Shown one piece after another: positions 884-51,036 of a stretch of 64,000 bases of DNA; the stretch's first letter is position 1, and the number at the start of each line of letters is the position of its first letter. Under the pieces are notes generated by a model. It was not told where the DNA came from. It saw only the letters and a program-made list of their open reading frames with translations, and searched no databases. Position numbers and translations under genes: made by a program. Location of the stretch: NCBI GenBank assembly GCA_964422035.1, contig CAYQZQ010000001.1, positions 515,025 through 579,024 on the forward strand. The letters run 5' to 3'. The DNA is from an uncultured Pseudomonadales bacterium. Lineage in GTDB: Bacteria > Patescibacteriota > Microgenomatia > UBA1400 > Chazhemtobacteraceae.

Positions 884-932
884 GGAGGGAAAGTCTGGCC
901 GGGTTAGTCCGGCCAGCTACACCTCCTTTTTT
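884..932 (+). terminator. Intrinsic terminator-like hairpin after the tRNA (ctggccgg-gttagt-ccggccag nested in ggagg/cctcc, then TTTTTT)
   Basis: Perfect 8-bp GC-rich stem at 895-916 with a T6 tract at 927-932. It overlaps the 3' end of the convergent NYN gene. Confidence 0.5.
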
Positions 933-1408
933 AATTTGTTTTTTAAGGGTGTGATAAATTCCAGATAAGGGTATAGATCGGAGTACAGTCGAGAATAAGC
1001 ACGACGATTGGGGATTAAGATCTTGGCTAGTTTGTTATTGCCAGCCAGATGATGAGCGAGGCAGTAAAAATCACCGTCACCAGTAACTATGACTGCTTGG
1101 TGATATTGCTGATAGTTGATTAGGGAGTGTAGAACCAGCTCGGCGTCAACATTGCCTTTGATCTTGGTAGTTCCGTTTTGTTTGATCTTGTAGGTGGGTT
1201 TGAAGATAAGATGAAAGCCAGCTTTTTTTAAGGATTGATATAAGCTTTGAAACTCTTTGACAAAGCCGATGAACAGATAGGCCTGATGAATGTTGTACTT
1301 ATCCTTAAGATAGGTGCGGAAGCGGAAAAAGTCTAGCGTCCAACCCTGGCTTTTGACACCACGATAAAGATTCTGACTGTCTATGAAAGCGTAGTTAATC
1401 TTGTCCAT
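917..1408 (-). CDS. NYN (LabA/PIN-like) domain protein, putative RNase
   Basis: FIDSQNLY...LFIGF...VDAELV...IVTGDGDF pattern typical of NYN domains. Confidence 0.55.
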   Translation of the reverse strand: MDKINYAFIDSQNLYRGVKSQGWTLDFFRFRTYLKDKYNIHQAYLFIGFVKEFQSLYQSLKKAGFHLIFKPTYKIKQNGTTKIKGNVDAELVLHSLINYQQYHQAVIVTGDGDFYCLAHHLAGNNKLAKILIPNRRAYSRLYSDLYPYLEFITPLKNKLKKEV

Positions 1409-1475
1409 TTCTCTTCTTCAATCAAATTTCTCTTACTCAACCTACTTTTAGATTAACCCGAAGTTAACCCTAATG

Positions 1476-1874
1476 TCAAGACTCAGTTTTGGAGGGAATA
1501 AAGTTAACCATCAGAGTTCTCTCTCGGGGGCCTGAAAACTCAAGTAAAACAATTTCTTGCCAGGTGCCCAGTTGTAGTTGGCCATTTTTTACTGGCACAG
1601 ATAAGTTGGGCCCTATCAGGGAAGCTAAGAAGTGATCTGGAAAGTGATCGGGGTCATGTGGGTGGTTAAAATCAAGATCAGGAATAAGTTTGTTAAAAAC
1701 TTTAAGGTAGTCTTGGTCAGTACCAGGATCCAGATCAGCGGTGGTAATGGCAGCGGTGGTGTGAGTAACAAAAAGATGAACTACCCCGTCTTGTGAAGGG
1801 AGTTTGCCTTCTATCTTATTGGTAATGTTAAGTACTTCCCGAGACTGGCTGGTGGCAATTTCTAGAGTCTTCAT
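1476..1874 (-). CDS. yjbQ: YjbQ/UPF0047 family protein (so-called secondary thiamine-phosphate synthase)
   Basis: 132 aa, VTHTTAAITTADLDPGTDQD...HPDH...LQLGTWQEIVLLEF matches the conserved YjbQ family. Confidence 0.6.
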   Translation of the reverse strand: MKTLEIATSQSREVLNITNKIEGKLPSQDGVVHLFVTHTTAAITTADLDPGTDQDYLKVFNKLIPDLDFNHPHDPDHFPDHFLASLIGPNLSVPVKNGQLQLGTWQEIVLLEFSGPRERTLMVNFIPSKTES

Positions 1875-2647
1875 TCTAGCTTGTCTACTTGTTTTTTGAT
1901 TAATCGTCGATAGGCGCAGTGCTCACAATCAGGATCGGCGTTAGGGATAGTATCAGAGTCTAATGTTTTTTTGGCTTCCATCAAAGCGGGCTCAACCCAG
2001 GAATCATCACCCTGATGAGAGATGATCTGAAGTTCAAATTCCAGTTTGCCGTCAAAGACTCTGTCTCCTTTTAAGCCATTAGCATAGACAAAGTAACCGA
2101 TATCAGAGACCTCAAAGTCTTTTTGGCGAAAGATCCATTGATATAGCTCTATTTGTTTTTTGTAACCCTGCTTGTATTTATCATCTAGACTGATCTCTTT
2201 GGTGGTAGAGGTGGATTTGTAGTCAACCATGTGTAGTTCTCCGCTTGAGTTTTCCCAGACATCATCGATGATGCCGCAGACTTCAAGATTGGTTGGCTCA
2301 TGCAAGACACAAGCACCTTTGTATTGATAGTAGTCGTCACGCCAGTCGGGCAGATCGGGATGTTGGAAAGGAACGGCGTCGATGTTGTATTTTTTCATTA
2401 AGACGTGAGGTTGTTGCTTTTCTCTAAGTAGATCAAACTCGTTTTTTAACAGGTGATCAACGGCGGAGTTTAAAGCCCAGCCGGGCATACTGGGCCGATC
2501 AAACCCTAGTCTTCTGTCTAGATAGAAGCAGCGGGGGCAGTCTAGGAAGCGCTCTAAACGAAAGCGGGAAAGGCGAAAGGGGTGAGAGTCGTTAGGATCA
2601 TAAAGATTTCTGGAACGCTTTTTGTAAGCCATGTATTTAGTATACAA
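1871..2647 (-). CDS. PD-(D/E)XK nuclease, Cas4/RecB-like, with 4-Cys cluster
   Basis: N-terminal CPRCFY and C-terminal CEHCAY cysteine pairs, a DYK motif and a QIELYQWIF (QxxxY) motif as in Cas4/RecB-family nucleases. 4-nt overlap with the downstream YjbQ ORF suggests an operon. Confidence 0.5.
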   Translation of the reverse strand: MYTKYMAYKKRSRNLYDPNDSHPFRLSRFRLERFLDCPRCFYLDRRLGFDRPSMPGWALNSAVDHLLKNEFDLLREKQQPHVLMKKYNIDAVPFQHPDLPDWRDDYYQYKGACVLHEPTNLEVCGIIDDVWENSSGELHMVDYKSTSTTKEISLDDKYKQGYKKQIELYQWIFRQKDFEVSDIGYFVYANGLKGDRVFDGKLEFELQIISHQGDDSWVEPALMEAKKTLDSDTIPNADPDCEHCAYRRLIKKQVDKLE

Positions 2648-2742
2648 TCTGTGAACTTAAGACCTTTAAATTATGTGTTAACCGATCATAATTTAGCCGG
2701 TCTTTGAGGAAGTTTTTGCTTTATAAGGTAAGATGAAAAAAG

Positions 2743-3426
2743 ATGCAGATAAAGAAAGCTTTTGAAAAATTGACTCCCAAGGGACTGGCAATAATTCTAG
2801 GTGTCTTTTTGGTTCCATCAATCGTTTTAAATTTCTATCTACACAAACAAAGTCAGGTCTGGCGGCAGGATATTAAGGTAGAGGGAGTAATTGATGGGGA
2901 CACCTTGGTTTTGGACGGCAAAGTAAGATTAAGACTGCGACATGCAGACGCCCCGGAACTTGAGTACTGCGGAGGGGAAGAAGCTAAACAACTATTAAGC
3001 CAGCTGGTGGAAGGGGAAAGAGTGCGGATAAGAGAGAGAATATTGGACCAGAGAGGCAGACCGCTAGCACTGGTTTATGTGGGAGATACATTAGTTAACC
3101 AGGAAATGATAGAGAGTGGCTGGGCGCGGTATCATCATGACACCTCGGACATAAAAGAACTGTTAAAAGAGGCCGGAAGCAAAGCCAAGGAAGAAAAGAG
3201 AGGTATATACGGAAAGTGCTGGGAGCAGGAGGAGAACAGTCAAAATGCAGAATGTAATATCAAGGGTAATATTGACAAAAATAACTCATCGATCAAGCGC
3301 TATTACCTGCCACATTGTGCCCATTACAAATTCACTATTATCGAAAAAGACAGAGGTGAGCAGTGGTTTTGCACTGAAGATCAAGCCCAAAAGGCAGGAT
3401 ATGTGAAAGCCAAGAGTTGTCATTAG
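2743..3426 (+). CDS. Membrane-anchored or secreted thermonuclease (SNase-like, YncB-type) with C-terminal Cys-containing NIKGNI...WFC..E.A..AGY tail
   Basis: N-terminal hydrophobic anchor. SNase core DGDTLVLDGKVRLRLRHADAPE...RGRPLALVYV...NQEMIESGWA. C-terminal CNIKGNI...RYYLPHC...EQWFCTEDQAQKAGYVKAKSC resembles the tail of Bacillus YncB-type nucleases. Confidence 0.65.
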   Translation: MQIKKAFEKLTPKGLAIILGVFLVPSIVLNFYLHKQSQVWRQDIKVEGVIDGDTLVLDGKVRLRLRHADAPELEYCGGEEAKQLLSQLVEGERVRIRERILDQRGRPLALVYVGDTLVNQEMIESGWARYHHDTSDIKELLKEAGSKAKEEKRGIYGKCWEQEENSQNAECNIKGNIDKNNSSIKRYYLPHCAHYKFTIIEKDRGEQWFCTEDQAQKAGYVKAKSCH

Positions 3427-3454
3427 CAGGTATCACTTTAAACAGGATAATATC

Positions 3455-3961
3455 TTAATTGAGGGTTTTTAAAACTAGATCGGTTGTTTGTTTTAGATCT
3501 TTTTTGGTAGTGTTGATGATTTTTTCGTCTTCTACTTGGCCGGGATCGGCATTTTTATACCATTTTTTCATCTGTTTGGATGAAATCGATTGACCTTTCT
3601 TTCTTTGCTTGTTTCTTTGGAGAGCAGTTTTTTGAGAGACTTCGAGAAAGACAAGGTCTATTTTTTTATCATTTTGATGACAGTATTTTCTAAGTTTGGT
3701 AAATAACTGACCGTTCTCGGCAACTGGTAAGATGCCTTCCAGGATAACCAGATAATTATTCTCAAGATATTTTTGGATAGCAAAGTTAAGAATCTGATTA
3801 ACCAAAAGTTTGTTATCCTCTCCAGGGACGACTTGCCAATAAAAGTAATCGGGTGATAGGACAGCTACTTTGGTAGGCAACAGTTTTTGCTGAATTGATT
3901 TGGCAACAGCTGATTTACCAGATCCAGGCCGACCACGTAATATTAATAGCTTTGATTTCAT
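3455..3961 (-). CDS. P-loop NTPase, small kinase-like (AAA_33/zeta-toxin-like fold)
   Basis: Walker A LILRGRPGSGKSAVAK, 168 aa. Confidence 0.4.
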   Translation of the reverse strand: MKSKLLILRGRPGSGKSAVAKSIQQKLLPTKVAVLSPDYFYWQVVPGEDNKLLVNQILNFAIQKYLENNYLVILEGILPVAENGQLFTKLRKYCHQNDKKIDLVFLEVSQKTALQRNKQRKKGQSISSKQMKKWYKNADPGQVEDEKIINTTKKDLKQTTDLVLKTLN

Positions 3962-9411: not shown

Positions 9412-10581
9412 TTAGCTGCCTATTAAGTATAACTCTTCCTCAGCGCGGGTGATGCCGGTATATAACCAGCGGCGCCACTGTTGATCGTTCATCTGCTTGA
9501 AGCGCTCTTCAAACAGTATGACTTTTTGAGCTTGACTACCTTGAGCTTTGTGAACTGTTAGAGCATAACCAAAATCAAACAAATCCACATCATCTGGAAT
9601 CTTTTTGCCCTCTTTGGTGCGTGACATAGTGCTTTTGGCACCAAACTGATCCTTTAGAACCTTGCCTTGAAAGACTTGATCATCGATGTCCATCTCGATC
9701 TGGACTTTGTAAAAGATATCTTCAAAAGGTTTTATGTTTATCAAAGTGCCCAACATGCCGTTGTAGATGTTTTTTTGGTGATTGTTGCGCAGACAGATAA
9801 CCCTATCCCCTTCCATGGGCTCAATTTGTGGATCAAAGAAACGCTTTTGGCGGATAAAGTCATTTATTTTCACACGGGTATGATTGTATCCGGATAGAAC
9901 AAGAGTGTCGTCATCATACTGGGAGAGCAGGTCTTCTATTCTCTGCTGGGAATCAAATGAGGTCTGATCGATCTTTTCCACAGCTGAGCCGTATTGACCG
10001 GGTTCTATAAAGCCTTTTTTGCGAGCTTTTATTGAGAGCTTGATAATAGGATTATCTTGAGCTTGGCGATGAATTTTTTCCAGTTTTATGTTTGGATCTT
10101 CCATGAGATTAAAGTCACCATGAATGGGAGGCAGCTGACCATGGTCTCCGATGGCCAGGATAGGCAGATCAAAGGAGATAAGATCTCTGAAGATATCAAG
10201 ATTGACCATTGAGGCCTCATCAACGATGATAAGTTGAGCATCAAGCGAAGACTTTTTCTTCCAGCCAGTTACAACTCCACCTGAGCTGACTATGGGAGCG
10301 TATATATATGAATGAATAGTGCCAACAAAGTCCTGATCAAAACGAGCATCGTGTTTGCGTAGAGTAGCATCCAGAACACGGCTAGCTTTACCTGTATATG
10401 AAATTAAAGCGATTTTTAGTTTTTCATTTCTTTTATGCAACAGGCGACGCAACATGGCAGTTAAAGTAGTTTTGCCAGTACCGGCATAGCCACCTAAAGT
10501 TAGGTACTGACTTCTTTCTTTATCCTTAAGCCAAGCTAGGATAGATTTTAAAGCGGATTTTTGATCTTTTGAGAGCTTCAC
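9412..10581 (-). CDS. RecD/Dda-like SF1 DNA helicase (AAA_30 + UvrD_C_2 type), short form
   Basis: Walker A GGYAGTGKTT, Walker B LIIVDEASMV, C-terminal YALTVHKAQGSQAQKVIL motif typical of the RecD/TraA/Dda family. Confidence 0.6.
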   Translation of the reverse strand: MKLSKDQKSALKSILAWLKDKERSQYLTLGGYAGTGKTTLTAMLRRLLHKRNEKLKIALISYTGKASRVLDATLRKHDARFDQDFVGTIHSYIYAPIVSSGGVVTGWKKKSSLDAQLIIVDEASMVNLDIFRDLISFDLPILAIGDHGQLPPIHGDFNLMEDPNIKLEKIHRQAQDNPIIKLSIKARKKGFIEPGQYGSAVEKIDQTSFDSQQRIEDLLSQYDDDTLVLSGYNHTRVKINDFIRQKRFFDPQIEPMEGDRVICLRNNHQKNIYNGMLGTLINIKPFEDIFYKVQIEMDIDDQVFQGKVLKDQFGAKSTMSRTKEGKKIPDDVDLFDFGYALTVHKAQGSQAQKVILFEERFKQMNDQQWRRWLYTGITRAEEELYLIGS

Positions 10582-10679: not shown

Positions 10680-11174
10680 ATGGCTAAACCCTACCAGAAT
10701 GCAACTTTAATCTGCATCATTCTTACAATTCTTGCAATAATCGGTTTAGTCCTTGGTATCATCTACTCTCAACCTCTTATAGCCATCTTTCTACTTCTTC
10801 CAACCTCAATCTATGAACTCTATCGCACCGAAGGGGAATCTACAAAACTAGCATCCTGGGGAATGCTTGGTTTACTTATTGCAGAAATCGCTTTTTTAAT
10901 CTTTAACATTAATCTAGACCTGGCCCAATTTCTCAATCAAAACCAGGCATACATATCTGGTTATAAAGTTCCCTTCGGAAAAATCACAGTGCTCTCCCCT
11001 ACTTTAATGGCAGTGCTTTCAATTGTTTTAATCACAAACACTAGAGGCAAGTACACACGCTGGTTAGCTGGAATCATCTTTTTTACTTCATTTGGTATCA
11101 TCTATATCCTCGACCCAAATATATTCACTCAACTCATTCGCTTAGCAATAAAAGAAGTATTCAGCTCAATCTAA
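10680..11174 (+). CDS. Hypothetical integral membrane protein (4-5 TM)
   Basis: Hydrophobic ORF only. Confidence 0.3.
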   Translation: MAKPYQNATLICIILTILAIIGLVLGIIYSQPLIAIFLLLPTSIYELYRTEGESTKLASWGMLGLLIAEIAFLIFNINLDLAQFLNQNQAYISGYKVPFGKITVLSPTLMAVLSIVLITNTRGKYTRWLAGIIFFTSFGIIYILDPNIFTQLIRLAIKEVFSSI

Positions 11175-11375
11175 CTAAATCTCTAAACAATTGATATTCT
11201 TTTGATCACAATAAGCTTCAAAAATAACAAGCTCTTGGTTTAAGTAGATAGTAATTACCCTCCCTATACTGGACGTATTCAGAAGCAAAAAAAATGAGCT
11301 TGGCTTTCCTTTTGGACATCTCACATCAATTCGAGAAATATTGTGTTAGAAAAGTATAAGCTCCCTCATTTAATA

Positions 11376-11406
11376 TCGTAGTTTTGTGTTATTTGAAAAA
11401 CTACGA
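11376..11406 (-). terminator. Possible terminator hairpin 15 nt downstream of the GmrSD stop (tcgtagtttt / aaaactacga)
   Basis: 10-bp perfect inverted repeat. The following T-tract is weak. Confidence 0.3.
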
Positions 11407-11420
11407 AATTTCTATGGCTA

Positions 11421-13148
11421 TTAATAATCCCAGACTTTGTTATATGATAATTTGGCTAGTTTTTTTTGTCTACCTAAAATGTCATGGTTTCCCCACTCAC
11501 CCCTATTATTATCTTTGATGTATTCAACTACTTTTACGGTTGATGGAATTTTAGTTTCTGACAAAATGTCGATCTTTTCATCTAAAGATTTGTTACCAGC
11601 TTTAGAGTTGATTTTTTTGTGTATTAGCACTAGATTACCTAGTTTATCTTTGTATTCTCCATGTATGTGTTTTTCAATGTCCCATTCTTCATTATAGGTT
11701 TGAGGTAGTATATGTTCCAGATTCACAACATCAAAATCGATCGTAAATTCCTCCCCGCCTTCTTGCTCATCAATTTTATTTAATAAGTATTTTAGCAAGC
11801 GTCTTTGTTTGGTTGAGTGCTTGTAGCTAATATCCATAAATTTTTCTTCAAAAGATGGATATTCAGGCTTCAAATCTTTCAATCTTTGGACCATCTTACC
11901 CAGAATGCTCTCTTTTTCACGCTTGCTAAGATTGTTGTCAATGGCTTTTTCTAACTCTATAGCAGTTTGTGAATATAATTTTTCTACCTTGTTTGCTTGC
12001 AGCTTCGAAATCGCAGAATATACGAAGGTAAATTTTTCAATTGTCTCAAAATAATGATCTATCTTGAACTCTAATTCTTCCGCATTGCGCAAGAGAGCGA
12101 GAAATATGACGTAGCATTGCTTTACTCTCATAGCATTAATGCCTAATAAGCTTCTGAAGATTTTTTTGGTTTTCTCAATTTCTTTTATTTCCCAATCGGC
12201 AGGGTTATCGGACAAGATTCTGTGATACCATCTAGATGATTTTAAAAGCTCATCTAGAAAGGCTTTTTTATCAGTTATGTTGTTTTTGATGTCTCGAAAT
12301 AAACCTTTCTTGGTTGTGTGGTTGTATTTTGAAATCCAATGATATCGAATGAAGCGAGCAATACTAGCATCTACACCTCTAACATTATCAATTATTTCCT
12401 GCCATTTTTCTTTAGCAATATCTTTTTTCCCATCTTCGGGTATAACTTCTTGAAATATTAGATTTTTCAATAAATCTGCAATGCCTAGGTCTACTCCTCT
12501 AGCATTCACTGTTTCAAAGACAATATATGCTTTGTCGTTGCTGTCGATACGTATCTCAATCACTTCCAAAGCACTTACTTTTTGATATAAGTCCTCAAGA
12601 ACTTCTTCCTTATCTTCTTGTGATTTTTTGTTAGCCATTTTGTGCTTTATCTTCTCTTTAAGGAGTTCATAAGCATCTTCTACTCTTTTTTCTTCCTCGG
12701 TATCTGCTTCCACCCACCCTCCTTCTTCTCCTGATTGGATATTTGTTTCAAAGAAATCTTTAAGTGAGTCACCGCACAAAACTCTGAAGTCTTTATCTCT
12801 GCCGGTAACGGAGACATCTGCAATCGCCTTCCTTTGGATTCCATCTGAAAGTTTAGTTAAATCATTTTCTCTAGCAATATCACGTAGGGTTGCAAAAAAT
12901 AACGTTATTGTAAGAATCCTCTGTTGACCATCAATTATATCCGAGTATCCTGTTTTTTTCTTCTCTTCTTCATTAAAAACAAACGTGCCAATAAATGGTA
13001 AAGATCGTTTGCCTGCTATTATGTCGTTCCAAAATTCATCTATATTATTTTCTTCCCAGGAATATTCACGTTGATTCCTAGGTATACGATACCTTTTACT
13101 TTCACCTAAAAGGATATCTTCAATTTTTTTCTCTTTTGCTACAAACAT
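11421..13148 (-). CDS. GmrSD-family type IV (modification-dependent) restriction endonuclease, DUF262 + DUF1524
   Basis: N-terminal YRIPRNQREYSWE and IDGQQRILTI (DGQQR hallmark of DUF262/ParB-like NTPase). C-terminal LEHILPQ...GNLVLIHKKINSKAGNKSLDEK (DUF1524 HNH-like). The gene and both flanks are conspicuously AT-rich. Confidence 0.7.
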   Translation of the reverse strand: MFVAKEKKIEDILLGESKRYRIPRNQREYSWEENNIDEFWNDIIAGKRSLPFIGTFVFNEEEKKKTGYSDIIDGQQRILTITLFFATLRDIARENDLTKLSDGIQRKAIADVSVTGRDKDFRVLCGDSLKDFFETNIQSGEEGGWVEADTEEEKRVEDAYELLKEKIKHKMANKKSQEDKEEVLEDLYQKVSALEVIEIRIDSNDKAYIVFETVNARGVDLGIADLLKNLIFQEVIPEDGKKDIAKEKWQEIIDNVRGVDASIARFIRYHWISKYNHTTKKGLFRDIKNNITDKKAFLDELLKSSRWYHRILSDNPADWEIKEIEKTKKIFRSLLGINAMRVKQCYVIFLALLRNAEELEFKIDHYFETIEKFTFVYSAISKLQANKVEKLYSQTAIELEKAIDNNLSKREKESILGKMVQRLKDLKPEYPSFEEKFMDISYKHSTKQRRLLKYLLNKIDEQEGGEEFTIDFDVVNLEHILPQTYNEEWDIEKHIHGEYKDKLGNLVLIHKKINSKAGNKSLDEKIDILSETKIPSTVKVVEYIKDNNRGEWGNHDILGRQKKLAKLSYNKVWDY

Positions 13149-13315
13149 GTTTACTTGTAATTTTTATTTCGATGGACGAGATGTTTTGAATAATTTTATA
13201 ATTGACTTAACTTAAGCTTAAAAGAATAAGCTTATATTAGATTTATTTTATATCACTTTTGTTAGATTTATAATACGAAATTTTCATACAAGCTAAAATA
13301 GTGTTTTTTTATAAT

Positions 13316-14632
13316 CTAATACCCTTCATAAAACCACTCCCAGGAGGGATCTTGCACTTCCTCAATATCACTCTCATACATCTTGTATACCTCGTCTTCT
13401 AAAACCGTCTGCCAGGTGCCCTGATAGTAGTGATACTCAACTGTATCTCCCACCCAGTTTTTGGTCTTGAATTTAACAAAGACAGTGTCAGAGTTGGCAG
13501 AAACAAGCTCGGTTAGATAGATAGTGACATCCAAAATATCAGTAAATCGGGAAGTCCACTCTTTATAGTTAGTCTTTTCCAAGTAGTGGGAAGAGAGTAA
13601 GTCAAAACCCTGCTGCATCTGACGGGTTTTAAGATAGGTATAGAAAGCCTCAACCGCCTCTTTGGGGGACTGGGAGGGATCAACATTAATCTTGGTAATG
13701 TCCTGATCGGTGAAGTTATCCCAGGAACGGTTGATGTAGGAGGAGGAGACAAAGAAGGAAGCTCCGGAAAGAGAAGTGGTATTTAAGCCAACCATGTTGC
13801 CGCACTGATCAACTAAGGGACCACCACTCATACCTTTAACCAGAGAGATGTTGGTCTGCAAGTACTCAGTGTTGGCCTCAGAGGTGGAAGGATGACGCTG
13901 GGCGGTATAGATGCCATCGGAAATGGAGACCTCACCTTCCAGCTGGGTGCCCAGAGAGTAACCGGCAGCCAGGACCGGCTCACCGAAAGTGAGAGTATGG
14001 GGAGGAGCAAATTCAAAGACCAAGTTGGGAAAACTTTTTTCTAGATGTAGGATGGCCAGATCGGCTTCTTTGTAGGCAGTGATGGAAGTAGGAGTAAGAA
14101 AGTTGCCATCAGGCAGAATGACTTTAGGACTGGGCTCACCTTCAATAACATGAAAGTTAGTTAAGACCTGATCGGGAGCAATAAAGGTACCTGAACCCTC
14201 AGAGTAGCCACCAACCACCCTAACTACAGAGCTTTTTAATTGCCGGCTAGTAACCCACTGGGAACAGAAAAACTTGTCATAACCGCCATAGCGCTCTACT
14301 AAAGCTAGGAAGCGATATTCAGTAAAGGCAAAGTAGAGAAAAATCAGACCCCAAAAGACGGTTTTGCCAAAACGGCTCCAGGAGCGGAAAGGCCAGATAA
14401 TGACTTTTAGTATCAAGCGGGCGAGAAAAGATATGAAACGAAGTAAGGACTTAAATAGATAATAAAGAGGGTAGGTAACTAGCTTAAGAGGGAAAAGATA
14501 TAAAGGAAAAAACAAACCTTTGATAAATTTAAAAAAGCGGACTTTAAGAGAAACCAGATGAGAAACTAACTTAAGCCAGTTGTAACGCAAGCGCAAGTAC
14601 AAACGACGCAGAAAAGTAGGAGCTAATAACAT
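13316..14632 (-). CDS. Membrane-anchored trypsin-like (S1/HtrA-like) serine protease with extra C-terminal domain
   Basis: N-terminal TM segments, catalytic triad context TNFHVI (His), EADLAIL (Asp), GMSGGPLV (Ser). Confidence 0.55.
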   Translation of the reverse strand: MLLAPTFLRRLYLRLRYNWLKLVSHLVSLKVRFFKFIKGLFFPLYLFPLKLVTYPLYYLFKSLLRFISFLARLILKVIIWPFRSWSRFGKTVFWGLIFLYFAFTEYRFLALVERYGGYDKFFCSQWVTSRQLKSSVVRVVGGYSEGSGTFIAPDQVLTNFHVIEGEPSPKVILPDGNFLTPTSITAYKEADLAILHLEKSFPNLVFEFAPPHTLTFGEPVLAAGYSLGTQLEGEVSISDGIYTAQRHPSTSEANTEYLQTNISLVKGMSGGPLVDQCGNMVGLNTTSLSGASFFVSSSYINRSWDNFTDQDITKINVDPSQSPKEAVEAFYTYLKTRQMQQGFDLLSSHYLEKTNYKEWTSRFTDILDVTIYLTELVSANSDTVFVKFKTKNWVGDTVEYHYYQGTWQTVLEDEVYKMYESDIEEVQDPSWEWFYEGY

Positions 14633-48900: not shown

Positions 48901-51036
48901 TTAAATTGGTTCTATAGTTATGTTAATCTTTTCAGCTCGTGGGGGCATGTATCTTCTTAGTATCGGCAAATTTGGAGATATGATTAGCTGACTTCGCTTA
49001 TAGCCGGCAATGTTTTCTAAAAGCCTCCTGGTTTCTCTTGCTGACATTTTTTTCATTTGTTCTTGATAGTCTGCAATAGGTACATCAGGTGTTAGTTGGG
49101 CTTCAATTTTGACATCCGCAGTGAGGGAGTTGTCTTGAGAGTTTAAAGCTATAAACTCGGTTGTTGTGTCTTCCAATCTTAATTTCCAACCAGGAGGAAT
49201 GTCATCTCTGATTTTATTTTTCAAAAGGTTAACCATGTCTTCGTCTTTATATGTAAGCAGGGTAAATTCAGCCTTTAGATTCAGACTCAAATTATCAGCA
49301 GGGTCTCCAGCCTCAACACTGTATTGAGCATCTGTAATTTCTGGACTTGATATAGGAACTGTGTTTTGCCCATCCTTTTGAGTCTTATTTAGTTTCTCCT
49401 TAGATTGACTGATAATCTCCTCAGTGACATTTTTTAACAATCTATCAAGATCCTCTTGGTTGGGAGATTTAACGGTTTCAGAATATCCCCCGGAAAAATC
49501 ATCATTTGCTTTAGCTAAAACTGATGTTTTAGGATATGTGTCAACACTTAACTCTGTTCCTGAACTAATATTTCCCTCTTCACCAACTTGTTCTGCTGTA
49601 ACTGATGTCGTGCTTTGACCAGGAACCAGAGTTGTAATTTCGCTTTCATCAGTTGAAGCAGTTTGTGAAGCAATTTCAACTTCCTCGTCTAGAGTGTACT
49701 CTATGTTATTGCTAGTAGCTAGGATGGCTCCTTTTTCAATAACCTTAGAAGAGTTTGTCTTGTTGTACAAAACAACTTGACCTTTTGCGGGATTTCCAAT
49801 TAAAGTTTCTCCTGTAGTAGAGATTTCTCCTTGGCCCTCTAGAGAAATTGATTGTTGGCCTGCCTTTAACGTGGAATTGCCACTCCCTTGATCTGAAATA
49901 TCTATAGTTAATCTTTTAGTAACTTTCTCTGGCTCTACAAAAACTTTTATATTTGCTGTTAAAAACTGCATGTAAATAATTAAGGTTCCTATTCCCATTA
50001 ACAATAAAATGATTAAGGGGGCAAGTATTTTCCAAGTTTTTGAAATATTTGTTTTAGGAAAAGAAAAGTTTACTGAAGGTCTTTTAAAATTTTTGATCTT
50101 ATTAACTAAAATAGATGAGTAAGTTTTTATGCCTTTTCTATCTTGGGTGTCTTTTATTTTTTTTACTTCATCATCAGGTTCACTTTCTTGGTCTTGGTGT
50201 GAAGACTTTGTAATATCGTCCGAGATAAAACTGTTCTGTTTGTGTTTTGTGTTAGATTTGTTTTTATCTTTTTTAATTTTTTTGTCGCTGATCTTTATCC
50301 CCATAGATTTTGCTGCTTCGATACCTCCCGCTAACGCAACTGATTGAATGGTTAATTGAGAATCTGGTTGCTCTACTTTAGGAAGGTGTATAAAGGGTAG
50401 TTTTTCTTGCCAGGGGTATGATGAAAGTTGCTGCTCAGCGTCTGACTCAGATCCATTAATTATTAATATGCGTGACGGTAGTTGTTTGACGTCAATTCTT
50501 GCCAACGCCTCTTCAACATCCTGACCCAGATCTTCACTTCTTCCCACCTCTTGCCTTCCTATGACACGGCCAAGTTTAATCACTACAACATTTACTTTTG
50601 TATCATTTAGTTCTAAGAGGATAAGGCTTGGAGGAATACCTTCACTGATTTTAAGTTGTTGAATAATGGCTTCTGTTATAACAACAAATCCTACAGCCTC
50701 AATTTCAAGCTTCTTTGTAATATCTTTAATTTTGGGCTGAATAGATAAGGCAATTTTTTTTCCTTTTACCCAAGCCTCTGGTAGTCCGAAAATTGCTTTA
50801 TCGGGTTCAGAACTTAAACCTTTCAATGCAGAACCTAAAGACTTGTCAACAGCTAGCAACAATGATTCGTCATCTCTCCAACTTTCAACTGAACCATAGT
50901 TGATAATCTTAGGTTGGTTGTCGACAATCTGCCAGACTGCAGTTTTTACCCTAGATTCTTGAATTTCAATTGCAAGAAACTTTTCGGGTGACATCTCGTC
51001 TTTGTTGTTCTTTTTTAGAATATTGTTTATTTCCAT
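48901..51036 (-). CDS. 711-aa bitopic membrane protein: cytoplasmic N-domain with weak FtsA/PilM actin-like resemblance, single TM near residue 330, large extracellular S/T/E-rich domain
   Basis: LAIEIQESRVKTAVWQIVDNQPKII and LILLELNDTKVNVVVIKLGRVIGRQEV resemble the phosphate-1/2 segments of actin-like ATPases (degenerate). TM WKILAPLIILLLMGIGTLIIYMQFL. No LPXTG motif. Confidence 0.35.
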   Translation of the reverse strand: MEINNILKKNNKDEMSPEKFLAIEIQESRVKTAVWQIVDNQPKIINYGSVESWRDDESLLLAVDKSLGSALKGLSSEPDKAIFGLPEAWVKGKKIALSIQPKIKDITKKLEIEAVGFVVITEAIIQQLKISEGIPPSLILLELNDTKVNVVVIKLGRVIGRQEVGRSEDLGQDVEEALARIDVKQLPSRILIINGSESDAEQQLSSYPWQEKLPFIHLPKVEQPDSQLTIQSVALAGGIEAAKSMGIKISDKKIKKDKNKSNTKHKQNSFISDDITKSSHQDQESEPDDEVKKIKDTQDRKGIKTYSSILVNKIKNFKRPSVNFSFPKTNISKTWKILAPLIILLLMGIGTLIIYMQFLTANIKVFVEPEKVTKRLTIDISDQGSGNSTLKAGQQSISLEGQGEISTTGETLIGNPAKGQVVLYNKTNSSKVIEKGAILATSNNIEYTLDEEVEIASQTASTDESEITTLVPGQSTTSVTAEQVGEEGNISSGTELSVDTYPKTSVLAKANDDFSGGYSETVKSPNQEDLDRLLKNVTEEIISQSKEKLNKTQKDGQNTVPISSPEITDAQYSVEAGDPADNLSLNLKAEFTLLTYKDEDMVNLLKNKIRDDIPPGWKLRLEDTTTEFIALNSQDNSLTADVKIEAQLTPDVPIADYQEQMKKMSARETRRLLENIAGYKRSQLIISPNLPILRRYMPPRAEKINITIEPI

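What the first reader, a model, noticed from the sequence alone, without database searches (positions are those of the whole stretch)
11175..13315. GmrSD-family type IV restriction enzyme on an AT-rich islet
The 575-aa ORF has DUF262 (DGQQR) and DUF1524 (HNH-like) hallmarks of GmrSD/BrxU modification-dependent restriction enzymes. The gene and both flanks (11175-11420, 13149-13315) are visibly more AT-rich than neighbouring genes, suggesting horizontal acquisition. A type IV enzyme implies this organism faces phage with modified DNA; it sits near a Dda-like helicase.
Basis: partly seen in the sequence, partly recalled or inferred. Interest (0 to 1): 0.5.

Follow-up and report, generated by a model that had tools for sequence, protein, structure and literature searches.

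The report
GmrSD-like anti-phage nuclease gene
This is an intact single-gene anti-phage nuclease of a well-known family (GmrSD-like, closest to the HEC-06 subtype) in a tiny-genome Patescibacteria bacterium, so it is an ordinary new member of a known kind.

Summary
ORF 11421-13148 (-) encodes a 575-aa protein with GmrSD_N/DUF262 (E 1e-31) and GmrSD_C/DUF1524 (E 2e-21). Its DGQQR NTPase motif and E478-H479...N505...N514 nuclease motif are intact.

The best defence model is HEC-06 (full length, E 2e-98). HEC-06 is a validated single-gene defence, and a distant homologue blocks T-even phages only when their DNA is modified. The closest solved structure, however, is DndI, a phosphorothioate-sensing nuclease with the opposite self/non-self logic. 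No dnd or ssp genes lie in the window or beside two homologues, so a stand-alone type IV-like enzyme is the best reading. It is not proven.

The stretch is the lowest-GC 2.1 kb of the window (0.326 against 0.398). This is weak evidence for transfer: roughly two thirds of the gene's deficit comes from its Lys/Glu/Ile-rich protein, GC3 and codon choice are typical, and intergenic DNA is AT-rich throughout.

Phyletic pattern and context support acquisition better. The nearest homologues are at most 46% identical, and every named one is non-Patescibacteria. The adjacent S1C protease is conserved across Patescibacteria and is flanked by different defence genes in 8 of 10 relatives.

The helicase is Dda/RecD-like, with no evident link. 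New member of a known kind; low interest.

The parts
11421..13148 (-). Gene for a 575-aa GmrSD-family (HEC-06-like) NTPase-nuclease
   Evidence: ORF. Pfam GmrSD_N plus GmrSD_C. PADLOC HEC-06 over the full length, E 2.4e-98. phrog_21165, E 8e-87. AlphaFold2 model with pLDDT 90.4.
12453..13121 (-). N-terminal DUF262 / ParB-like NTPase domain (residues 10-232). Includes the P23-x-x-Q26-R27-x-Y29-x-W31 motif and DGQQR (residues 73-77, nt 12918-12932).
   Evidence: Pfam envelope. DGQQR is invariant in all 112 aligned sequences. Q79A and R80A in this motif abolish HEC-06 defence (10.1101/2024.01.29.577857).
11868..12452 (-). All-helical linker domain (about residues 233-427)
   Evidence: DSSP on the AlphaFold2 model shows helices from 244 to 426, with pLDDT mostly above 90. 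A helical linker is the typical GmrSD architecture according to the text quoted.
11451..11867 (-). C-terminal DUF1524 His-Me finger nuclease domain (residues 428-566). Catalytic E478-H479 are at nt 11712-11717; N505 and N514 follow.
   Evidence: Pfam GmrSD_C. E478, H479, P482, G504, N505 and N514 are invariant in 112 sequences. The equivalent E471A and H472A mutations abolish HEC-06 defence (10.1101/2024.01.29.577857).
13149..13315 (-). 5' spacer of 167 bp at 19.8% GC, presumed to be the gene's own promoter region. A TATAAA box lies at 13200-13195 on the minus strand. There is no clear -35 element or Shine-Dalgarno sequence.
   Evidence: Sequence and GC. The consensus scan found no minus-strand promoter-like site here, so promoter function is inferred only.
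11175..11420 (.). 3' spacer of 246 bp between convergent genes. It holds a 10-bp A/U-rich hairpin (inverted-repeat arms 11372-11385 and 11397-11410) just after the stop codon.
   Evidence: Inverted repeat I9. RNA fold -13.4 kcal/mol, z = -2.6. No Rfam match. Only short ORFs of 49 aa or less. Terminator function is inferred; there is no U-tract.
13316..14632 (-). Context: conserved Patescibacteria S1C (HtrA-like) membrane protease. It bounds one side of the variable slot.
   Evidence: Trypsin_2. 862 homologues; the named ones are almost all Patescibacteria (one Woesebacteria, one candidate division WWE3), best identity 64%. Defence genes flank it in most of the relatives sampled.
1871..2647 (-). 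Context: conserved PD-(D/E)XK-family gene. It neighbours the protease in relatives and may bound the far side of the variable slot.
   Evidence: Pfam PDDEXK_1. 66% identity to L094 14632-15366 and 62% identity to L095 7261-7998.
9412..10581 (-). Context only: SF1B Dda/RecD-like helicase. Not shown to be part of the system.
   Evidence: Pfam AAA_30 and UvrD_C_2, plus a sub-threshold SH3_13 match. phrog_325 'Dda-like helicase', E 1.1e-89. Separated from the nuclease gene by the convergent gene 10680-11174 (+).

Best explanation
The gene encodes a stand-alone, single-chain nuclease of the GmrSD superfamily, HEC-06-like subtype.

Proposed mechanism:
- The N-terminal ParB-like DUF262 domain binds and hydrolyses NTP through DGQQR. 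This domain is shown to be present; its activity is inferred.
- A helical linker couples it to the nuclease domain.
- The C-terminal DUF1524 His-Me finger (E478/H479, N505, N514) cuts or nicks DNA.

There is no partner methyltransferase or sulphur-modification system next to it. Self-DNA is therefore most likely spared because the enzyme acts only on DNA carrying a phage-type base modification, which is type IV logic. That is inferred from HEC-06 relatives.

The gene is accessory cargo. It sits with its own unusually long spacers directly downstream of a conserved Patescibacteria protease gene, at a position where relatives carry other defence systems. It was probably acquired horizontally, but not recently, because its codon usage matches the host.
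For: Family and subtype:
- Both Pfam domains score far above their cut-offs.
- Three PADLOC HEC-06 models match end to end (328, 316 and 297 bits).
- All catalytic residues are invariant across 112 homologues. The window protein deviates at only 3 of 85 columns that are at least 95% conserved, against a family mean of 1.1 and maximum of 6, so there is no sign of decay.
- The model is confident: pLDDT 90.4, pTM 0.82.

Function, from the literature:
- HEC-06 is an experimentally validated defence gene that needs DGQQR and the E-H residues (10.1101/2024.01.29.577857).
- A Bacteroides homologue only 22% identical to HEC-06 blocks T-even phages but not unmodified T4-GT7 (10.1101/2025.02.28.640651).

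Stand-alone status:
- Pfam scans of 26 window ORFs outside the ribosomal-protein/rpoBC block show housekeeping or unrelated genes and no dnd or ssp genes.
- Homologues P0003 and P0011 sit alone among housekeeping and other unrelated genes.

Acquisition:
- The nearest homologues are at most 46% identical. Every named one is from a non-Patescibacteria phylum.
- The host's RpoB finds relatives at 96%, 93% and 83% identity. Named hits at 65-69% are mostly Patescibacteria (Collierbacteria, Chisholmbacteria, Woesebacteria, Pacebacteria), with one labelled Spirochaetia.
- The adjacent protease is a conserved Patescibacteria gene.
- In 8 of 10 distinct relatives' loci that protease is flanked within about three genes by defence-type genes: type IIG enzyme plus SNF2/PLD helicase (three loci), type I RM (two), a type II methyltransferase, HEC-05-like DUF262 proteins (two, one sharing a IIG locus), and Hhe.
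- The window's PD-(D/E)XK gene is the protease's neighbour in L094 and L095.
Against: - No biochemical or phage data exist for this protein or for any close relative. The best characterised relatives are probably below 30% identity.
- The closest solved structure is DndI, not a type IV enzyme: profile E 6e-32, Foldseek TM 0.71.
- PADLOC 'Orf5' models also score highly (262 bits). These probably represent ORF5/DndI of the Salmonella dpt cluster (PMC2978375).
- Only 64 kb of a roughly 725-kb contig was visible, so a modification system elsewhere in the genome cannot be excluded.
- Residue 25 is Asn, where 99 homologues have Tyr and 12 have Phe. In DndI and SspE this aromatic residue mediates sensing of the modification, so substrate sensing here may differ or be impaired.
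- No flanking direct repeats, tRNA gene or integrase mark an insertion.
- No close relative was available to show an empty site.
Confidence: 0.6

Rival explanations
1. DndI/SspE-like enzyme. The nuclease attacks DNA that lacks a host-made backbone (phosphorothioate) or other mark. The host's own modification, sensed by the DUF262 domain, switches it off self-DNA.
For: - DndI (9JFL) is the best PDB match by sequence (E 1.4e-14 with the single sequence; E 6.2e-32 with the profile).
- DndI is also the best match by fold (Foldseek E 1.7e-17, TM 0.71/0.69). SspE is next.
- PADLOC 'Orf5' models reach 262 bits. ORF5 lies in the Salmonella dpt/dnd cluster (PMC2978375).
Against: - No dnd, ssp or IscS-like genes were found among the 26 window ORFs scanned against Pfam or within 8 kb of two homologues. 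dndI, by contrast, is adjacent to dndBCDE (PMC11662687).
- HEC-06 models outscore Orf5 and far outscore SspE.
- The residue equivalent to the PT-sensing Y25 of DndI and Y30 of SspE is Asn here.
- An unpartnered nuclease of this type would be expected to be toxic. DndI and SspE both need host DNA modification to spare self DNA (PMC11662687).
Confidence: 0.12
2. A GmrSD-superfamily defence nuclease whose trigger is neither a phage base modification nor a host mark. It might be activated by a phage protein or a DNA structure, or it might act as an abortive-infection nickase.
For: - The HEC-06 paper text that was read gives no substrate specificity.
- DUF262-DUF1524 proteins have been recruited for several different logics: GmrSD/BrxU, SspE and DndI.
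- The unusual N25 falls at a sensing position.
Against: The only phenotype reported for a HEC-06-type homologue is modification-dependent: T2, T4 and T6 are blocked but T4-GT7 is not (10.1101/2025.02.28.640651). No data support another trigger.
Confidence: 0.15
3. The AT-rich islet marks a recent horizontal insertion of foreign DNA whose composition has not yet adjusted to the host.
For: - It is the lowest-GC 2.1-kb stretch of the window, and the gene has the second-lowest GC of 61 ORFs.
- The spacers on both sides are unusually long for this compact genome.
- Homologous genes are also 8-13 GC points below their flanks in soil contigs.
Against: - GC3 z = -0.78. Synonymous codon choice is at about the median of the window's genes. 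Expected GC from the protein alone is 0.362 against 0.341 observed.
- Core genes such as rpoB deviate more.
- The contrast at the 13.3-kb boundary is inflated by a protease gene that is unusually GC-rich at synonymous sites (+0.049).
- All true intergenic spacers in the window are AT-rich.
Confidence: 0.15
4. The gene is a non-defence housekeeping nuclease, or an inactive relic.
For: It sits among DNA-metabolism genes: a helicase and an AlkD-like alkylation-repair gene. It carries three deviations at conserved columns plus N25.
Against: - The ORF is full length and every catalytic residue is intact.
- Its deviation count is within the family range.
- The family distribution is patchy and cross-phylum.
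- It matches defence-family models and a phage-borne family (phrog_21165).
Confidence: 0.05

Closest known systems
HEC-06 (Hma-embedded candidate 06; PADLOC models PDLC04154/04155/04157), a GmrSD-like single-gene defence
   Same: Full-length HMM match (E 2.4e-98). Same size, about 560-580 aa. DGQQR is present. The nuclease motif is EHILP here and EHICP in HEC-06. It is a single gene. According to the papers, HEC-06 defence needs both motifs, and a distant homologue acts only on modified T-even phages.
   Different: The gene is not embedded in an Hma or type I RM system. It stands alone between a protease gene and a membrane-protein gene. The host is a Patescibacteria bacterium with a roughly 725-kb contig.
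DndI (ORF5 of the Salmonella Cerro 87 dnd/dpt cluster; PDB 9JFL)
   Same: Closest solved structure by sequence profile (E 6e-32 over residues 17-562) and by fold (TM 0.71). Same DUF262, helical and HNH architecture, with DGQQR.
   Different: DndI works with IscS-DndBCDE and spares PT-marked self DNA. No such genes are seen here. Identity is only about 20%. The PT-sensing Y25 is Asn here.
GmrSD / Eco94GmrSD / BrxU (classical type IV enzymes acting on glucosyl-hmC and other modified cytosines)
   Same: Same two Pfam domains and domain order, the DGQQR motif, single-chain form and stand-alone or island location. This is the functional logic proposed for the window protein.
   Different: Sequence similarity is marginal (BrxU 7P9K, E 0.17, N-terminal 40 residues only). 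BrxU is not among the Foldseek hits. There is no RLFDS motif. This is a different clade of the superfamily.
SspE (PT-sensing nickase of the SspABCD-SspE system)
   Same: DUF262 N-terminal domain and DUF1524 C-terminal motif. Second-best structural match.
   Different: SspE is about 770 aa. Only the two ends align and TM is 0.45 or lower. There are no sspABCD genes.

Membership tests
GmrSD superfamily (DUF262 + DUF1524 single-chain enzymes) | N-terminal DUF262/ParB-like domain with the DGQQR NTPase motif | tested here: met
   PF03235, E 1.1e-31, residues 10-232. D73-G-Q-Q-R77 is invariant in 112 sequences.
GmrSD superfamily (DUF262 + DUF1524 single-chain enzymes) | C-terminal DUF1524 His-Me finger nuclease with (D/E)-H ... 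N ... N | tested here: met
   PF07510, E 2.2e-21, residues 428-566. E478, H479, N505 and N514 are invariant.
GmrSD superfamily (DUF262 + DUF1524 single-chain enzymes) | Large alpha-helical linker between the two domains | tested here: met
   The AlphaFold2 model has helices spanning residues 244-464 at high pLDDT.
Type IV (modification-dependent) restriction enzyme | Cleaves modified DNA but not unmodified DNA; NTP-stimulated | not testable with these tools
   Inferred only from HEC-06 and HEC-06_Bact phenotypes reported in 10.1101/2024.01.29.577857 and 10.1101/2025.02.28.640651.
Type IV (modification-dependent) restriction enzyme | No cognate modification enzyme encoded with it | tested here: met
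   The immediate neighbours are an S1C protease and a small membrane protein. No DNA methyltransferase or dnd/ssp genes appear among the 26 scanned ORFs of the 64-kb window. The rest of the genome was not visible.
HEC-06 | Full-length match to HEC-06 profile models, scoring better than other DUF262-DUF1524 subfamilies | tested here: met
   PDLC04157 at 328 bits, residues 16-574 aligned to model positions 19-556 of 558. The next family, Orf5, reaches 262 bits, and SspE 58 bits or less.
HEC-06 | Embedded within an Hma or other modification-based defence system | tested here: not met
   The gene is stand-alone. This is a discovery context rather than a strict requirement. Homologues P0003 and P0011 are also stand-alone.
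DndI | Encoded next to dndBCDE (and dndFGH) and dependent on PT modification | tested here: not met
   No Dnd-type genes among the 26 scanned window ORFs. The whole genome was not available.
DndI | Aromatic PT-sensing residue (Y25) in the P-x-Y-Q-R motif | tested here: not met
   The window protein has N25. The alignment to 9JFL is ungapped across this stretch. Homologues have Y (99) or F (12).
SspE | Protein of about 770 aa associated with sspABCD | tested here: not met
   The protein is 575 aa. SspE models match only the termini. There are no ssp genes.
BrxU / HEC-05 | Sequence similarity to BrxU, including the RLFDS nucleotide-binding motif; BREX-embedded | tested here: not met
   7P9K scores E 0.17 with the family profile and is absent from the Foldseek hits. 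No HEC-05 model is among the 25 best of 28 PADLOC matches. The protein sequence contains no RLFDS, by inspection.

The most novel reading that the evidence does not exclude
The position next to the conserved S1C protease (and its frequent PD-(D/E)XK neighbour) may be a lineage-wide defence-gene hotspot in Microgenomates-type Patescibacteria. Different lineages carry different cargo there: type I RM with embedded TIR genes, a type IIG enzyme with an SNF2/PLD helicase, Hhe, HEC-05-like DUF262 proteins and, in this genome, a HEC-06-like nuclease. The Asn at the otherwise aromatic sensing position (N25) could additionally reflect a changed modification specificity.
Probability: 0.4. Interest if true: 0.45.

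Novelty: new member of a known kind. Interest (0 to 1): 0.25.

Why it matters
It adds one divergent member (at most 46% identity to anything sampled) of a validated defence family to a reduced-genome Patescibacteria lineage. This is consistent with such organisms investing in cheap single-gene defences, and it hints that their phages may modify their DNA.

The more useful by-product is the conserved protease anchor. It could serve as a landmark for mining variable defence cargo in Patescibacteria metagenomes. None of this changes current understanding of GmrSD-type enzymes.

Tried and rejected
- **Synteny with close relatives, to find an empty site.** The genome scan with the protease returned only relatives at 51% and 34% identity, with no shared gene order. 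The metagenome scan with the helicase returned one partial 52% hit. RpoB relatives at 96%, 93% and 83% identity sit on contigs of 4-7 kb, too short and too far from the locus. An exact look-up of the window protein found no record. The insertion therefore could not be delimited directly.
- **GC as proof of transfer.** Rejected after the codon-level analysis.
- **Insertion scars.** No flanking direct repeats or att-like sites, no nearby tRNA (the only one is at 732-803) and no integrase or transposase.
- **RNA or small genes in the long spacers.** No Rfam match. Only ORFs of 49 aa or less.
- **Promoter and terminator scans.** The number of hits was no higher than in shuffled sequence, and there was no minus-strand promoter call in the 5' spacer.
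- **Functional link to the Dda-like helicase.** None was found, and the two genes are in different transcription units. PADLOC hits for the helicase are generic SF1 matches.
- **The protease as a defence component.** Its PADLOC hits (RT-Protease, LmuA) cover only the trypsin fold, and it is broadly conserved, so I treat it as a core anchor gene.
- **NCBIfam.** No model matched the nuclease.
Full report
**1. Observation**

The ORF exists exactly as described: 11421..13148 on the minus strand, 575 aa, ATG start. It is bounded by a 246-bp spacer (11175-11420) and a 167-bp spacer (13149-13315). DGQQR is at residues 73-77 (nt 12918-12932). The nuclease motif reads V-N-L-E478-H479-I-L-P ... G504-N505-L ... 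I-N514-S-K-A-G-N519.

The AT-richness is also real. GC of 11175-13315 is 0.326 against 0.398 for the window, and no other 2141-bp window is as low.

**2. What the composition means**

- Gene GC (0.340) is the second lowest of 61 ORFs (z = -1.95). The deficit sits at codon position 2, where it is the lowest of all ORFs, and at position 1.
- GC3 (0.306) is unremarkable: z = -0.78, with 17 of 60 ORFs lower.
- The protein is 12% Lys, 11% Glu, 10% Ile, 8% Asp and 5% Asn.
- Given its amino-acid sequence and the window's own synonymous codon preferences, the expected GC is already 0.362. The residual of -0.021 is smaller than for rpoB (-0.044) or ruvX (-0.051). Synonymous codon choice is at about the median of the window's genes.
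- The neighbouring protease is unusually GC-rich at synonymous sites (+0.049), which sharpens the visible boundary.
- True intergenic spacers elsewhere in the window are 0.26-0.33 GC. The flanks (0.313 and 0.198) are ordinary to slightly extreme intergenic DNA.
- Homologues in soil contigs are likewise 8-13 GC points below their flanks, so low GC goes with this family.

Composition alone does not demonstrate a recent transfer.

**3. Identity of the protein**

- Pfam gives GmrSD_N/PF03235 (E 1.1e-31, residues 10-232) and GmrSD_C/PF07510 (E 2.2e-21, residues 428-566). Both are far above their gathering thresholds.
- NCBIfam has no model for it.
- PADLOC places it best with HEC-06: PDLC04157 at E 2.4e-98 and 328 bits, end to end, with two further HEC-06 models at 316 and 297 bits. 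'Orf5' models come next at up to 262 bits, and SspE matches are weak and terminal.
- A PHROG of unknown function matches over the full length (phrog_21165, E 8e-87). A few prophage or phage records encode relatives at about 30% identity or less.
- The family is large: 827 clusters (at 50% identity) at E <= 1e-30 and 12,139 at E <= 1e-3.
- In an alignment of 112 members, P23, Q26, R27, Y29, W31, D73-R77, E478, H479, P482, G504, N505 and N514 are invariant.
- The window protein deviates at 3 of 85 columns that are at least 95% conserved. The family mean is 1.1 and the maximum 6, so there is no sign of decay.
- AlphaFold2 with this alignment gives a confident model (pLDDT 90.4, pTM 0.82). It shows an alpha/beta N-terminal domain, a long helical middle and a beta-beta-alpha-type C-terminal region.

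**4. Which kind of DUF262-DUF1524 enzyme**

Proteins with this architecture operate under opposite logics.

- GmrSD and BrxU cut modified phage DNA.
- SspE and DndI sense the host's own phosphorothioate and attack unmarked DNA (text quoted).

By sequence and fold, the closest solved structure is DndI (9JFL): E 1.4e-14 with the single sequence and 6.2e-32 with the family profile over residues 17-562, and Foldseek E 1.7e-17 with TM 0.71. SspE follows. BrxU is at the noise level (E 0.17). PADLOC's 'Orf5' is very probably ORF5 of the Salmonella Cerro 87 dpt cluster (PMC2978375), the gene later named dndI (PMC11662687). This clade is therefore a sister of DndI rather than of classical GmrSD.

Three things argue against a DndI-like role.

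- HEC-06 models score higher than Orf5 models.
- No dnd, ssp or other DNA-modification genes were found among the 26 window ORFs that were scanned against Pfam, which are the ORFs outside the ribosomal-protein/rpoBC block. None lie within 8 kb of homologues P0003 or P0011 either. P0003 sits between isocitrate and malate dehydrogenase genes, and P0011 sits next to RibD_C-domain and KAP-NTPase genes.
- The aromatic residue that mediates PT sensing (DndI Y25, SspE Y30) is Asn25 in the window protein. The other 111 family members have Tyr (99) or Phe (12) there.

HEC-06 itself is experimentally validated. It reduces plaquing in E. coli and loses activity with Q79A/R80A (in DGQQR) and E471A/H472A (in EHICP) (10.1101/2024.01.29.577857). 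It was reported to block T4. A Bacteroides homologue only 22% identical to it protects against T-even phages but not the unmodified T4-GT7 (10.1101/2025.02.28.640651).

The most likely mechanism is therefore an NTP-driven, modification-dependent His-Me nuclease. This step is inferred, not shown.

**5. Genomic setting and acquisition**

The window comes from a Patescibacteria chromosome.

- It holds the ribosomal-protein cluster and rpoBC.
- RpoB is 65-69% identical to proteins labelled Collierbacteria, Chisholmbacteria, Woesebacteria and Pacebacteria. One hit is labelled Spirochaetia.
- The source contig is 725,544 bp.

The nuclease has no relative above 46% identity. Every named relative is from another phylum: Verrucomicrobia, Omnitrophica, Bacteroidota, Zixibacteria, Thermodesulfobacteriota or Acidobacteria-type. 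In contrast, the adjacent S1C protease (13316-14632) has 862 homologues, and the named ones are almost all Patescibacteria, up to 64% identity.

I examined the protease's neighbourhood in ten distinct relatives' loci.

| Locus | What flanks the protease |
|---|---|
| L087, L088, L091 | SNF2/PLD helicase plus type IIG restriction-methylase directly upstream. L088 and L091 add HEPN_AbiU2; L088 also has a HEC-05-like DUF262 protein and a Cas4-like nuclease. |
| L090 | NUDIX-protease, as in the window, followed downstream by RadC and a type I RM system with two embedded ThsB-TIR genes |
| L089 | A type II methyltransferase and a ParB_N protein downstream |
| L094 | A LexA-like gene and type I methylase and specificity subunits downstream |
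| L095 | An 800-aa HEC-05-like DUF262 protein two genes upstream |
| L096 | A 1325-aa Hhe/PDC-S37 helicase-nuclease (E = 0), then an integrase fragment and a phage packaging gene |
| L092/L093 | Ambiguous: helicase, Metallophos and SMC-type ATPase |
| L001 | No defence genes |

Sources.

The DUF262 proteins in L088 and L095 belong to a different subfamily from the window's. Only the N-terminal motif aligns.

The window's PD-(D/E)XK gene (1871-2647) is 66% and 62% identical to genes that lie 5.4 kb downstream of the protease in L094, with RM cargo in between, and immediately upstream of it in L095. The window's YjbQ gene matches one about 0.8 kb from the protease in L089.

The flank of this protease thus looks like a slot for variable, mostly defence, cargo. 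In the window, the nuclease occupies the first position of that slot. It has two of the longest spacers in an otherwise compact region.

This supports horizontal acquisition better than GC does. Native-like codon usage suggests the acquisition is not recent.

The left limit of the acquired segment is undetermined, anywhere between 11175 and about 2650. No repeats, tRNA gene or recombinase mark it, and no close relative with an empty site could be retrieved.

**6. The helicase**

ORF 9412-10581 is an SF1B helicase. It matches AAA_30 and UvrD_C_2, with a sub-threshold SH3_13 match, and phrog_325 'Dda-like helicase' at E 1.1e-89. The label is fair. However, it lies beyond a convergently transcribed membrane-protein gene and next to an AlkD-type alkylation-repair gene. 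Nothing ties it to the nuclease.

**7. Spacers**

- The 3' spacer has a 10-bp A/U-rich hairpin right after the stop codon (-13.4 kcal/mol, z = -2.6) but no U-tract.
- There is no Rfam family match and no credible small ORF.
- The 5' spacer has a TATAAA box on the coding strand, but the scan called no promoter there.
- Regulatory roles for both spacers are inferred only.

**8. Verdict**

The type IV function is the best-supported mechanism, but it rests on distant relatives. A DndI-like rival is disfavoured by context.

The AT-rich islet is mostly a consequence of protein composition. Horizontal origin is nevertheless likely, on phyletic and contextual grounds.

Type IV enzymes have already been tallied in Candidate Phyla Radiation (CPR) genomes, the group that includes Patescibacteria (10.64898/2026.07.13.738296; Mrr in a patescibacterial epibiont, 10.1101/2024.03.08.584096). 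This is therefore a new member of a known kind, of low interest. The protease-anchored defence slot is a modestly interesting side observation.

Noticed in passing
window 13316-14632 and loci L087-L096: The conserved Patescibacteria S1C protease gene is flanked by different defence systems in 8 of 10 distinct relatives' loci: type IIG enzyme plus SNF2/PLD helicase, type I RM with TIR genes, a type II methyltransferase, HEC-05-like DUF262 proteins and Hhe. This may be a lineage-wide defence hotspot.
   Followed up: partly
window 1871-2647 (-); L094 14632-15366; L095 7261-7998: The PD-(D/E)XK-family gene is 62-66% identical to the protease's neighbour in two relatives. In the window, the interval between the protease and this gene is 10.7 kb of mixed cargo: nuclease, membrane protein, helicase, AlkD, GSDH, ABC-2 transporter, AAA_33 kinase and SNase.
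   Followed up: partly
window residue 25 of the nuclease (nt 13074-13076): Asn replaces an aromatic residue that is Tyr in 99 and Phe in 12 of the other 111 aligned members. The position corresponds to DndI Y25 and SspE Y30, reported to mediate sensing of phosphorothioate.
   Followed up: partly
window 48901-51036 (-): A 711-aa ORF next to a sortase gene has weak Baseplate_J / phage baseplate-wedge similarity (Pfam E 4e-7; phrog_6 E 1e-6), in an otherwise housekeeping stretch.
   Followed up: no
window about 38000-64000 versus 1-35000: Genes to the right of about 38 kb, including rpoB and rpoC, use fewer G/C at synonymous sites than expected from window-wide usage. Many genes to the left use more. 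The cumulative GC skew also turns over near 39-47 kb.
   Followed up: no
window 917-3961: A cluster of small nuclease or toxin-like genes lies next to tRNA-Pro (732-803): NYN domain, PD-(D/E)XK, SNase and an AAA_33/zeta-toxin-like kinase.
   Followed up: no
L096 10064-14041: A relative carries a 1325-aa Hhe/PDC-S37 helicase-nuclease (PADLOC E = 0) followed by an integrase fragment and a GP3 packaging gene, directly downstream of the protease orthologue.
   Followed up: no
L001 (CAYMZX010000014.1): A contig labelled 'uncultured Gammaproteobacteria' carries the genome collection's best match to the Patescibacteria-type protease (51% identity), together with trigger factor and DUF5660 genes. The taxonomic label may be a mis-binning.
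   Followed up: no
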